A stretch of 64,000 nt of DNA from a phage. How positions within the stretch are numbered: position 1 is the stretch's first letter; every line of letters starts with the position of its first letter. The notes under the pieces are model-generated. The model was given only the letters and a program-made list of their open reading frames with translations. It was not told the origin of the DNA and ran no database searches. Positions 42,562-53,988 of the stretch are shown one piece after another. The position numbers and the translations under genes were made by a program. The stretch is from sequence record PV357171.2; one strand, written 5' to 3'.

Positions 42562-44388
42562 TTACTTAAGATTTAAGTGTTTTACTCTACCAAGTACTTC
42601 TTTTTGTTTCCCAGAATTGAAAGGCCTACTGCCCGGGGATCCCAGGTACCCGCAAACCCTACGTGTAACCTCTATTTCTTCAGATCCACAACTCGGACAT
42701 ACAAACCCACGTTCAGAGGCAACAGATTCACCCATATACCCACAGTTGAAGCACTCATCAATTGGTATATTAACACCAATATAATGACTACATTCTAGTC
42801 CCTTATCTACTACGTATTCAAGAGCTTTATGGAACTTTTTCATTTGTGGTAGTTCCACAAACGATATATTACCACCATTAGCTATTTTGGTGAAATGAGC
42901 TTCATACTCAAATTTAGTATCCGGAGCTACCTTCTCCCTTACGTCCAAATGATGACTATTAGTGAGATAGCCTTTATCTGTTAGCCAAGAATACTCAGGG
43001 AACCTACGTTCCAGTAGTTTATTAAAGCGATTACATAGAGACTCACTAGGAGTAGCATACAAGCTAAACCCAAGATTAGTCTCATTAGCTTTAACTTCGC
43101 AACGATTTTTTAGGTGAGTAAGAACTTCCTCTGTAAATTCAATACAGTCCCTATGAGTCTGCGGTAAACTAAACATTATTTGGCACATCTCATAGACCCC
43201 AATATACCCAAGAGATACAGAAGATCTACCCTCAAAAATTGGCCATACATACTCTTCCCTATCTAAACGCACACCAAAACCACCGTGCATATAAAGAATA
43301 GGGGCTTGTTTAGCCTTCACTTTCTTAAGTCTATCCAAGAAAAAATCATGAGCTTCAAAAGCCTCATCCACATATTTGTCCAGAATATCCCAGAAATCTT
43401 CAAAAACCCCATCTGCCTCAGCAGCAACCATAGGTAGATTAATAGACACTACACCTAAATTATTGCGCCCTGCAATTTCTCCGGAGGGGATAGCAGATAA
43501 AAAGCTACGACAACCCATAGGGGCTTTAAAATCACCAGTAACAGCTATAACTTTCTCATAGCTTAAATAGTCTGGGTACATACGGGTAGCAGAACACTCA
43601 AGTGCTAGCTGTTTTATATCATAGTTAGGATCGCCTGGATTTTTATTTAACCCTTCTTTAACTGAGAATACTAGTTTAGGGAAGATAGGGGTTGACTCGG
43701 CAGCACCTAAACCTTTAATACGATTTTGGAGGATGGCTTTCTGAATCATCCTTTCCTCCCACTCCTGACCTAATCCAAAGCCAAGCGTAACAAAAGGGGT
43801 CTGCCCGTTAGAGTTAAATAATGAATTAGTTTCATACTCTAGAGCTTGGAATGCATCATAACACTCTTTTTCAGTAAGCTCAGTAGCATACACAGCAGCT
43901 TTTCTTTCATCCTTGAGCCAACGTAGCCCACGACCCAGATGTTTATTGTAAGACTTTCTGACATACGGGGCTAGAACCTCGTCGATACGATCAATAGAGG
44001 TACCACCATACTGAGCACCAGATACTTGGGCAATAATCTGAGCAGTGATTGCACATGCAGTAGTTATGGATTTAGGAGTTTCAATATTTGCATTACCGAT
44101 TTTAGTACCATTCTTCAGCATGCCCCCCAGATCTACTAAACAACAGTTGGTGTACCCTTGTGCTCTGTAGTCCATGTCATGAATGTGTATTTTACCTAGA
44201 TTATGCGCGTCTAACAGGTGTTTAGGTAATTCTTGCGATACTAAATACTTGTTAATTTCCCCAGCTAATAAGTCCCTTTGAGTATGGAACATCTCACTAG
44301 GCTTATTAGCATTATTATGTTGTAAGTCTTTATCCGCAGTTAGAGTGAGCAGACCTTTGCAATTTTCAATTAATTCATTCTCTGTCAT
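42562..44388 (-). CDS. nrdD: anaerobic ribonucleoside-triphosphate reductase (class III)
   Basis: C-terminal CxxC...CxxC zinc site (CFNC...CPSC) and glycyl-radical motif RVCGYLGS. Confidence 0.8.
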   Translation of the reverse strand: MTENELIENCKGLLTLTADKDLQHNNANKPSEMFHTQRDLLAGEINKYLVSQELPKHLLDAHNLGKIHIHDMDYRAQGYTNCCLVDLGGMLKNGTKIGNANIETPKSITTACAITAQIIAQVSGAQYGGTSIDRIDEVLAPYVRKSYNKHLGRGLRWLKDERKAAVYATELTEKECYDAFQALEYETNSLFNSNGQTPFVTLGFGLGQEWEERMIQKAILQNRIKGLGAAESTPIFPKLVFSVKEGLNKNPGDPNYDIKQLALECSATRMYPDYLSYEKVIAVTGDFKAPMGCRSFLSAIPSGEIAGRNNLGVVSINLPMVAAEADGVFEDFWDILDKYVDEAFEAHDFFLDRLKKVKAKQAPILYMHGGFGVRLDREEYVWPIFEGRSSVSLGYIGVYEMCQIMFSLPQTHRDCIEFTEEVLTHLKNRCEVKANETNLGFSLYATPSESLCNRFNKLLERRFPEYSWLTDKGYLTNSHHLDVREKVAPDTKFEYEAHFTKIANGGNISFVELPQMKKFHKALEYVVDKGLECSHYIGVNIPIDECFNCGYMGESVASERGFVCPSCGSEEIEVTRRVCGYLGSPGSRPFNSGKQKEVLGRVKHLNLK

Positions 44389-45046
44389 TGATTATTTCCT
44401 CGATAAACCTTGCTACTATTTCTGGCTCAATACTAAAAAATTCTGTAGCACCATCAAAATCTTTGTACTGACAATTATATTCCTTAAACTGTAAATGGGC
44501 CTCTCTTTCAATACGCATAGCTTTTGATCTATCTGAAAAGCTATATTCCTTAAATATTTTTAAATCATGTATGTTAGAAGAAGTTTTAATATCTCTGAGT
44601 CTATCTTTAGTTCTGCTAGACACCCCTATTTTGGTTCCCACACTACTTATTAAAATATATACGTTAGTAGGATAATTATCCTTCTCTAATAAACATATAG
44701 GACAACCAGAATTATGATTTCTAACACTATCAAGTGTAGACTCCCATCTATGATTATTCTCACAGCTGAACATAATTTTACTCTTAGAATTGATGTATTT
44801 ACCTTCCATCTTTATTCCACGAGCAGCTAAGGATTCATTTACCTCTTTAAGATCTAAAGTACGACTAGCACAATAAGGGCAACCTCTCCCACCTTTTACA
44901 TTATCTACTCTAGCCTCCCAGATATGTCCATTAGAGCACTTAAATACAGCATTGGATTTAGCTGATATATACGTGCTTAGCATAATTATTCCTCTGGGAG
45001 CAAGTGTTAAGTTCACATCTTCTGTAGTTATTTTCTTTCTTACCAT
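44375..45046 (-). CDS. T5orf172/GIY-YIG-like domain protein with N-terminal duplicated zinc ribbons
   Basis: Two C..H...C..C repeats, then NVYILISSVGTKIGVS..R block resembling the T5orf172 (GIY-YIG superfamily) domain. Confidence 0.5.
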   Translation of the reverse strand: MVRKKITTEDVNLTLAPRGIIMLSTYISAKSNAVFKCSNGHIWEARVDNVKGGRGCPYCASRTLDLKEVNESLAARGIKMEGKYINSKSKIMFSCENNHRWESTLDSVRNHNSGCPICLLEKDNYPTNVYILISSVGTKIGVSSRTKDRLRDIKTSSNIHDLKIFKEYSFSDRSKAMRIEREAHLQFKEYNCQYKDFDGATEFFSIEPEIVARFIEEIINDRE

Positions 45047-45067
45047 TAAATTCTCCTTAATTCACAT

Positions 45068-45096
45068 ATTATACACAATTCCACCCCATAAGTCAA
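45068..45096 (-). promoter_or_regulatory. consensus sigma70 promoter (TTGACT, 17 bp, TATAAT)
   Basis: Reverse complement TTGACTTATGGGGTGGAATTGTGTATAAT, then AAGGAG RBS. Confidence 0.6.
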
Positions 45097-45268
45097 CTAC
45101 ATTTTTCTAATACTATTTGACTTTTGATTTTTATCAATTTTTATTGATGCTATACAGCATAATATCTTTACATATAAATAAATGATTATCTAGTATCATA
45201 TTTTTACCTTTATAAGCAAGTAAATTTTTTACTTAAAAGCAATATCATAGGTTTATTTAAAATTATAC

Positions 45269-45297
45269 TTGCTTTTTGCTGTAAACCTTGTTATAAT
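45269..45297 (+). promoter_or_regulatory. early promoter (TTGCTT, 17 bp, TATAAT)
   Basis: Divergent promoter region between minus- and plus-strand early gene blocks. Confidence 0.6.
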
Positions 45298-45373
45298 ATA
45301 TTTGTAAGTTGATAAACAAGATCTCTTTGTTGATCCTCTGTTAGAAGCGAAGTACACTATAGGAGTGTTATTT

Positions 45374-46126
45374 ATGGGAAAAGCACGTCAAAAAAGAGAG
45401 AACCGCAATGGTTCAAGAAAGCGTGGCAACAAATATGAGAATAACGTAATTCAGGCTGATTTTTCTAATGATTACGCTAACCCAGTTGCTAAATCCCTAG
45501 TAGGTAAAAACCGCGAGCAAAAATCATATATCAATATGATCAAGAACAACACAGTGACTGTGGGTATCGGTGAGCCAGGTACTGGTAAAACCTTTATTCC
45601 GTCCGTTCTTGCAGCTCAGGAACTCGTAGACATTCACTCAGATATTGAGCAAGTGATTCTCGTACGTCCTAATGAACCTCTAGGTAAGTCTCTTGGTATG
45701 CTTCCTGGTGATCTGGCGGAAAAGCTAGAGCCTTGGTTAGAGCCAATAGCTGATGGTATGAAATGGGCCATCGGCGATCATGCCTATAAGGGATATGTCG
45801 AACGTCAGAAAATTAAATTTTTGGCTGTCGAACATGCTCGTGGCAGAACTTTCAACAACTCCTATGTAATTGTCGATGAAGCTCAGAATATTTCCGTTGA
45901 GGCAATGATTTGTCTCCTAACTCGTGTAGGGCAAGACTGCCGTTTAATTATCTGCGGAGATATAGCTCAGAAAGACATTAAAGGTGACTCAGGTCTAGCA
46001 CTCCTTATGGAAGTCTATGAGAAATATGAAAATGCCCCATTCTCAATGATCGAATTGATTGATAACGTTCGTTCTGTTGAGTCTAAAGCATTCTATGATA
46101 TTTTTAAAGATATGGGAAAGGTGTAA
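45374..46126 (+). CDS. phoH: PhoH-like ATPase
   Basis: Walker A GEPGTGKT and Walker B VIVDEAQN; ATG at 45374 after GGAG. Confidence 0.75.
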   Translation: MGKARQKRENRNGSRKRGNKYENNVIQADFSNDYANPVAKSLVGKNREQKSYINMIKNNTVTVGIGEPGTGKTFIPSVLAAQELVDIHSDIEQVILVRPNEPLGKSLGMLPGDLAEKLEPWLEPIADGMKWAIGDHAYKGYVERQKIKFLAVEHARGRTFNNSYVIVDEAQNISVEAMICLLTRVGQDCRLIICGDIAQKDIKGDSGLALLMEVYEKYENAPFSMIELIDNVRSVESKAFYDIFKDMGKV

Positions 46127-53472: not shown

Positions 53473-53988
53473 ATGGCTAAGCAGAAAAACGCAAAAACTC
53501 AAGCAGCTCCGGCAGTTAAAACTTTCCCGAAGACTGAGGCTAATCGCAAAGCTCGGCTGGAACGTCACCTGCGTAAGCATCCTACCGATGCTCAGGCTGC
53601 GCAAGCACTGAATAATCCGGCTCCGATTCGTAAGAAGCCTAAAGCTAAAAATGCCACCCGTAAATCCTACAAAATGGTTATGTATGTAGAAAATTACGGC
53701 CACAAATCTGTCCCAGTTTCCCTGAGCTTCAACGCTGGAGCTGAATTGTTCTCTCGTAATGGTATGTCTATGAAAGACTATGAGAAGGCAGTTAACCAGA
53801 AGCGTAAACCAACAGCAGATGTATTGCGTGATACTCGTGGACAGTTTGGTTCTGTTAAGCCAAATATCTTTGGCGTAGAGTATAGTAAAGATAATGTTCG
53901 TGCTCTGTGTTACGGTGTAGGCATTAAGTTCACGGGTGATTCTGCTCGTAAATCTGCTAAACCAGCTCGTAAACGTAAAGCGAAGTAA
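53473..53988 (+). CDS. hypothetical basic protein
   Basis: 171-aa Lys/Arg/Ala-rich ORF. Confidence 0.4.
   Translation: MAKQKNAKTQAAPAVKTFPKTEANRKARLERHLRKHPTDAQAAQALNNPAPIRKKPKAKNATRKSYKMVMYVENYGHKSVPVSLSFNAGAELFSRNGMSMKDYEKAVNQKRKPTADVLRDTRGQFGSVKPNIFGVEYSKDNVRALCYGVGIKFTGDSARKSAKPARKRKAK

What the first reader, a model, noticed from the sequence alone, without database searches (positions are those of the whole stretch)
44375..45046. T5orf172/GIY-YIG-like protein with duplicated N-terminal zinc ribbons
The N-terminal half has two C..H...C..C units in tandem and the C-terminal half resembles the T5orf172 branch of GIY-YIG nucleases (NVYILISSVGTKIGVS…R). It is driven by a consensus TTGACT-17-TATAAT promoter rather than a family promoter. 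The domain combination suggests a sequence-specific nicking or homing enzyme.
Basis: partly seen in the sequence, partly recalled or inferred. Interest (0 to 1): 0.35.

Follow-up and report, generated by a model that had tools for sequence, protein, structure and literature searches.

The report
Zinc-finger T5orf172 homing endonuclease gene
This is an ordinary, already described kind of selfish "homing endonuclease" gene of T5-like phages, wedged between the nrdD promoter and nrdD, and it is present, swapped for a relative, decayed or absent at the same spot in closely related phages.

Summary
Window 44375..45046 (minus strand) encodes a 223-aa protein with two tandem Cys-His-Cys-Cys zinc-finger modules (Pfam DUF4379 x2 and CapR; the halves are 42% identical, E 5e-17). 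Its C-terminal T5orf172/MUG113 domain scores above Pfam's cut-offs and keeps the Tyr, Lys-Ile-Gly, Arg and Glu core.

The window is a T5-like phage (Tequintavirus). Comparative genomics supports a free-standing homing endonuclease gene:
- The slot between phoH and nrdD is empty in T5.
- It holds this allele in about 20 phages.
- It holds a 47%-identical three-finger paralogue in many others, and an HNH endonuclease in SSP1.
- It holds only decayed 3' remnants in DT571/2, Gostya9 and HildyBeyeler.
- The same allele (92-100% nt) sits beside two nrdD alleles that share only about 60% identity.
- dN/dS is 0.12-0.3.

The TTGACT-17-TATAAT promoter is real, but it is not the gene's own. It aligns with the nrdD early promoter annotated in T5. 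The gene sits between that promoter and nrdD, overlaps nrdD by 14 nt and carries nrdD's ribosome-binding site.

This architecture, its abundance in T5-like phages and its association with ribonucleotide reductase genes were described by Barth et al. 2023. Cleavage site, nick versus double-strand break, and homing itself remain untested. Novelty and interest are low.

The parts
44375..45046 (-). Homing endonuclease gene (HEG), 223 aa plus stop codon
   Evidence: ORF list; Pfam and PHROG matches; orthologues of the same 672 nt annotated in VAH1 ('T5orf172 domain protein'), NR01 ('endonuclease'), ESCO40 and rutana; dN/dS 0.12-0.3
44864..45037 (-). Zinc-finger DNA-binding module 1 (residues 4-61; ligands C37, H41, C56, C59)
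   Evidence: DUF4379 and CapR matches; internal repeat E 5e-17; ligands invariant in alignment A3; AlphaFold2 model gives helix, then strands, then a short helix, pLDDT about 90
44687..44863 (-). Zinc-finger DNA-binding module 2 (residues 62-120; ligands C95, H99, C115, C118)
   Evidence: Second DUF4379/CapR stretch; repeat comparison; C95, C115 and C118 invariant and H99 at least 90% conserved
44378..44686 (-). T5orf172 (GIY-YIG superfamily) nuclease domain, residues 121-223; core residues Y130, K139-I140-G141, R149, E180
   Evidence: PF10544 and PF13455 above cut-off; invariant core residues; domain model pLDDT 87, pTM 0.79, strand-strand-helix-strand-helix-helix; BFVD matches to T5orf172 proteins including ICP1 ORF88/Odn; best PDB match is the GIY-YIG protein 1ZG2, prob 0.92 but E 0.069
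45068..45096 (-). Sigma-70 promoter TTGACT-17-TATAAT: the conserved nrdD early promoter, here driving HEG plus nrdD
   Evidence: Scan, 11 of 12; aligns with the T5 feature 'promoter, nrdD' (53884-53958) and with the same element in DT571/2, Shivani and rutana
45053..45058 (-). Shine-Dalgarno AAGGAG of the HEG, 6 nt before the ATG
   Evidence: Read directly from the sequence
44375..44401 (-). HEG 3' end that doubles as the nrdD translation-initiation region: GAGGAA at 44401..44396, nrdD ATG at 44388..44386, 14-nt overlap of the two ORFs
   Evidence: Sequence and ORF coordinates; this stretch is kept in phages that have lost the rest of the gene
44408..45172 (.). Variable cassette: 765 nt here against 185 nt in DT571/2. 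Against the Shivani-type allele the non-homologous part is 44489..45159
   Evidence: blastn break points; alignments; identity profile
42562..44388 (-). nrdD (anaerobic ribonucleotide reductase), downstream cistron and flanking conserved gene; 'type A' allele
   Evidence: ORF; annotation of orthologues; two alleles of about 61% aa identity

Best explanation
The gene is a free-standing homing endonuclease gene of the T5orf172 branch of the GIY-YIG superfamily.

Shown:
- The domain architecture: two tandem treble-clef-type zinc-finger modules, then a C-terminal nuclease domain with an intact Tyr, Lys-Ile-Gly, Arg, Glu core.
- Its position between the nrdD early promoter and nrdD. It overlaps nrdD by 14 nt, and nrdD's ribosome-binding site lies inside its last codons.
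- A patchy distribution at a fixed locus. Among T5-like phages the slot is empty, holds this allele, holds a three-finger paralogue, holds an HNH endonuclease, or holds decayed remnants.
- Transfer of the same allele between two deeply diverged nrdD backgrounds.
- Purifying selection on the protein.

Inferred:
- The gene is transcribed early from the nrdD promoter as the first cistron of a two-gene operon.
- The two zinc modules, acting like beads on a string, bind an extended DNA sequence present in alleles of the phoH-nrdD interval that lack the gene.
- The nuclease domain cuts nearby. By analogy with I-TevI and Odn this is probably a double-strand break made by two successive strand cleavages.
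- In a mixed infection the break is repaired from the gene-carrying genome. This copies the gene and neighbouring markers into the recipient and makes the slot a boundary of genetic exchange.
- The carrier genome is protected because the insertion replaces the target.
For: Domains: Pfam DUF4379 x2, CapR, T5orf172 and MUG113, all above curated cut-offs; PHROG 681 endonuclease, E 1e-49; internal duplication E 5e-17.

Catalytic core and zinc ligands are invariant in homologues.

Structure: the domain model (pLDDT 87) matches T5orf172 proteins in BFVD, including ICP1 ORF88/Odn at TM 0.75, E 1.9e-4. Odn cleaves DNA in vitro and its E180A mutant is dead (PMC8263062). CapR-type zinc-finger DNA binding was shown experimentally (PMC8096241).

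Locus polymorphism:
- T5 has no gene between phoH and nrdD.
- DT571/2 and Gostya9 keep only a 36-codon 3' remnant with an in-frame stop.
- HildyBeyeler keeps the start codon region plus the last 61 codons of the three-finger allele at 98%.
- Shivani, RN29, ESCO30 and SelmaRatti carry a 287-aa, 47%-identical paralogue.
- SSP1 carries an HNH endonuclease in the opposite orientation.
- Among the records whose flanks match closely, the flank-to-flank spans fall into classes of about 1320, 1390, 1900 and 2065 nt.

Mobility:
- rutana shares the gene at 92-100% nt identity, while its nrdD is about 60% identical. The break lies within about 30 nt of the nrdD start.
- The NR01 (type A nrdD) and rutana (type B) copies are each other's closest relatives, dS 0.035 against 0.19 to the window.

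Selection: dN/dS 0.12-0.3 for the more diverged pairs.

Promoter homology with T5's annotated nrdD promoter.

Literature: T5orf172 endonuclease genes with repeated zinc-finger domains are enriched in T5-like phages. One third of them lie near ribonucleotide reductase genes, at recombination boundaries (PMC10448857).
Against: - No cleavage, target site or homing event has been demonstrated for this protein or any T5-like orthologue that I could find.
- No solved structure matches at a significant level. The full-length model gives nothing. For the domain, the best PDB hit is a GIY-YIG protein but with E 0.069 and TM 0.42-0.46. Profile against PDB sequences gives only E 0.7-0.9 for Hpy188I and 1ZG2.
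- The protein itself does not hit canonical GIY-YIG PF01541.
- The second Tyr of the GIY-YIG motif is Lys. The His/Tyr of the first helix is missing, as in Odn.
- No flank polymorphism distinguishes carriers from non-carriers. The target therefore cannot be located by comparison.
- All type A nrdD genomes examined carry a gene or a remnant. Within that lineage the pattern is equally explained by vertical descent plus allele replacement and deletion.
Confidence: 0.8

Rival explanations
1. A domesticated or weaponised nuclease rather than a selfish homing element. The protein cuts the DNA of competing co-infecting phages, satellites or the host (marker exclusion or anti-parasite function, like ICP1 Odn), and is kept because it benefits the phage.
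For: The same nuclease domain class is used that way by ICP1 Odn (PMC8263062; structural match). The gene is under purifying selection. It is expressed from a strong early promoter. Homing endonucleases are known to cause marker exclusion (SegG, cited in PMC10448857).
Against: The gene is dispensable: T5 and most T5-like phages lack it. It decays repeatedly to remnants. The slot is interchangeable with unrelated endonucleases. This is the life cycle of a selfish element. Its DNA-binding modules are the generic CapR/DUF4379 repeats, not a module borrowed from a recognisable target system as in Odn. PADLOC gives only one weak hit, E 0.0025. The two readings are not mutually exclusive.
Confidence: 0.12
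2. A DNA-binding regulator. The zinc fingers bind the nrdD/phoH divergent promoter region and tune transcription, with the nuclease domain inactive or secondary. Precedents are CapR, and I-TevI acting as an autorepressor.
For: The CapR homology domain passes its cut-off. CapR is a repressor derived from such endonucleases (PMC8096241). The gene lies directly at a divergent promoter region and is co-transcribed with nrdD. I-TevI autorepression is mentioned in PMC10448857.
Against: CapR lacks the nuclease domain. Here that domain is complete, and Y130, K139-G141, R149 and E180 are invariant among homologues. nrdD is expressed from the same promoter without this gene in T5 and many others.
Confidence: 0.05
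3. The enzyme that makes the site-specific single-strand interruptions characteristic of T5 virion DNA.
For: T5 DNA carries nicks at defined sites, which are annotated in the T5 record.
Against: T5 itself has the nicks but has no gene in this slot. The only T5 match in the 32 kb of T5 examined is a weak one elsewhere, T5.069, E 0.006. The gene is absent from most T5-like phages.
Confidence: 0.01

Closest known systems
T5orf172 homing endonuclease genes with repeated CapR/DUF-type zinc-finger domains (ICP1 gp174, gp165 and others; T5-like phages), as described by Barth, Dunham and Seed 2023 (PMC10448857)
   Same: Same architecture: N-terminal repeated zinc-finger modules and a C-terminal T5orf172 domain. 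Same phage group, same preference for ribonucleotide reductase neighbourhoods, same position at a boundary of genetic exchange, and the same variation in repeat number (2 fingers here, 3 in the Shivani-type allele).
   Different: Nothing of kind. This particular locus (nrdD promoter/nrdD) and its remnants were worked out here. The fingers here use Cys-His-Cys-Cys ligands, while the CapR motif is reported as CxxC...CxC.
Odn (ICP1 gp88), the only T5orf172 nuclease I found with demonstrated cleavage (PMC8263062)
   Same: The C-terminal T5orf172 domain is retrieved structurally (TM 0.75, E 1.9e-4). Both retain the catalytic Arg and Glu and lack the His/Tyr of the first helix.
   Different: Odn has a RepA_N DNA-binding domain aimed at a satellite's replication origin, and it serves as an anti-parasite weapon. 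Here the DNA-binding part is two zinc modules, and the gene behaves as a mobile element.
CapR of Vibrio cholerae PLE satellites (PMC8096241)
   Same: Homologous zinc-finger DNA-binding module (Pfam CapR, 33.4 bits against a cut-off of 24.2).
   Different: CapR has no nuclease domain and acts as a transcriptional repressor.
Canonical GIY-YIG homing endonucleases of T4 (I-TevI, SegA-G)
   Same: Free-standing or intron-borne mobile nucleases of the same superfamily. They have a modular 'beads on a string' build and are often inserted next to nucleotide-metabolism genes (nrd, td).
   Different: Domain order is reversed: in I-TevI and Seg the catalytic domain is N-terminal. Canonical PF01541 is not matched by this protein. 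The second motif is Lys-Ile-Gly instead of Tyr-Ile-Gly.
HNH endonucleases of T5 (hegA, hegC, hegH and F-Tfl enzymes)
   Same: Same biological role in the same genomes. SSP1 carries an HNH endonuclease in this very slot. PHROG 559 'HNH endonuclease' shares the zinc-finger N-terminal part, E 3e-18.
   Different: Unrelated catalytic domain.

Membership tests
T5orf172 domain family (Pfam PF10544; GIY-YIG superfamily) | Profile match above the curated gathering score | tested here: met
   41.6 bits against a cut-off of 20, E 1.8e-10, residues 118-218. Sister family MUG113 gives 39.8 bits against 22.3. All 17 domain homologues match both families.
T5orf172 domain family (Pfam PF10544; GIY-YIG superfamily) | Conserved catalytic core: Tyr of the first strand, (Tyr/Lys)-Ile-Gly of the second strand, Arg of the first helix, Glu of the second helix | tested here: met
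   Y130, K139, I140, G141, R149 and E180 are invariant in alignment A3. In A6, Y, K, G, R and E are invariant and Ile is at least 90% conserved. A sub-threshold profile alignment places these on the YVY..YTG..RR..E motifs of the GIY-YIG protein 1ZG2.
T5orf172 domain family (Pfam PF10544; GIY-YIG superfamily) | GIY-YIG alpha/beta fold (strand-strand-helix-strand-helix) | tested here: inconclusive
   The model has the expected element order, pLDDT 87. It matches many predicted T5orf172/GIY-YIG viral proteins, 87 hits with E <= 0.001. Against solved structures the top hit is the GIY-YIG protein 1ZG2, but at E 0.069 and TM 0.42-0.46. The full-length model gives nothing.
T5orf172 domain family (Pfam PF10544; GIY-YIG superfamily) | Metal-dependent DNA cleavage | not testable with these tools
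   Shown only for the relative Odn (PMC8263062).
Free-standing homing endonuclease gene | Sporadic presence or absence at one fixed locus among close relatives, beside a conserved gene | tested here: met
   T5 is empty. This allele is at 90% or more protein identity in 21 of 421 matching records. The slot is otherwise occupied by a paralogue, an HNH gene or remnants.
Free-standing homing endonuclease gene | Horizontal movement independent of the flanking genes | tested here: met
   The same allele lies beside nrdD type A (window, VAH1, ESCO40, NR01) and type B (rutana), which share 61% aa identity. The gene tree disagrees with the flank: NR01 and rutana are closest.
Free-standing homing endonuclease gene | Degeneration and loss phase of the homing cycle | tested here: met
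   Remnants with a stop codon or an internal deletion in DT571/2, Gostya9 and HildyBeyeler.
Free-standing homing endonuclease gene | Site-specific cleavage of the gene-less allele and super-Mendelian inheritance in mixed infection | not testable with these tools
   Needs an enzyme assay and phage crosses. A search for flank polymorphisms that would mark a protected target found none.
CapR / DUF4379 treble-clef zinc-finger DNA-binding modules | Profile match above cut-off and conserved metal ligands, in repeated copies | tested here: met
   DUF4379 gives 52.2 bits against 24.5 in 2 stretches. CapR gives 33.4 bits against 24.2 in 2 stretches. Ligands are conserved. Repeat comparison E 5e-17. Relatives carry up to 11 repeats.
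CapR / DUF4379 treble-clef zinc-finger DNA-binding modules | Zinc binding and sequence-specific DNA binding | not testable with these tools
   Shown for CapR by Cys-to-Ser mutants and gel shifts (PMC8096241).
Canonical GIY-YIG homing endonucleases (I-TevI / Seg type) | N-terminal PF01541 catalytic domain followed by a C-terminal DNA-binding region | tested here: not met
   The order is reversed here. PF01541 is not matched by this protein at E <= 1. Only 3 of 17 relatives touch it, best E 8.4e-4.
T5 virion-DNA nicking enzyme | Present in T5, which carries the nicks | tested here: not met
   There is no gene in this slot in T5, and no close homologue in T5 positions 30-62 kb.

The most novel reading that the evidence does not exclude
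The endonuclease slot is the switch point between two deeply diverged nrdD alleles (61% aa identity) that circulate among T5-like phages, and cleavage by this enzyme is what drives their exchange. The element has also become entangled with its neighbour: it has captured the nrdD promoter and embeds nrdD's ribosome-binding site in its last codons. Clean loss is therefore selected against, and only internal deletions survive. That would explain why every type A genome examined keeps at least a 3' remnant. A further possibility is that the tandem Cys-His-Cys-Cys modules form a readable, modular DNA-recognition code.
Probability: 0.25. Interest if true: 0.35.

Novelty: already known. Interest (0 to 1): 0.15.

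Why it matters
The finding matters little beyond correct annotation. Near-identical genes are already deposited: VAH1 'T5orf172 domain protein', NR01 'endonuclease', and the Shivani-type paralogue 'homing endonuclease'. The class, its repeated zinc-finger architecture, its abundance in T5-like phages and its link to ribonucleotide reductase genes are published (PMC10448857).

The locus is nevertheless a compact natural illustration of the whole homing cycle: empty site, invasion, allele replacement and decay. It also shows how such genes mark recombination boundaries. It would be a convenient system for the first biochemical mapping of a zinc-finger T5orf172 endonuclease target, since T5-like phages that carry the gene and ones that lack it have both been isolated.

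Tried and rejected
- NCBIfam: no match.
- phmmer of the protein against PDB sequences: only chance hits.
- Profile of the nuclease domain against PDB sequences: Hpy188I and 1ZG2 (both GIY-YIG) appear, but at E 0.7-0.9, not significant.
- Foldseek of the full-length three-domain model against PDB: no meaningful hit, probably because the relative placement of the three modules in the model is arbitrary (pTM 0.46). I therefore modelled the domain alone.
- Word-indexed homologue search: only 7 proteins. The exhaustive representative search gave 13,525, mostly multi-finger proteins without the nuclease domain.
- Paralogues of the gene elsewhere in the 64-kb window: none.
- Flank positions fixed in carriers and absent from non-carriers, which would mark a protected target: none in 43400-44407 or 45173-45900.
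- I first read rutana's nrdD N-terminus as a clean hybrid junction. The nucleotide alignment only shows that the break lies within about 30 nt of the start codon, so I do not claim an exact junction.
- T5 genome nickase: rejected because T5 lacks the gene.
- Defence-system component: only one weak PADLOC hit, E 0.0025.
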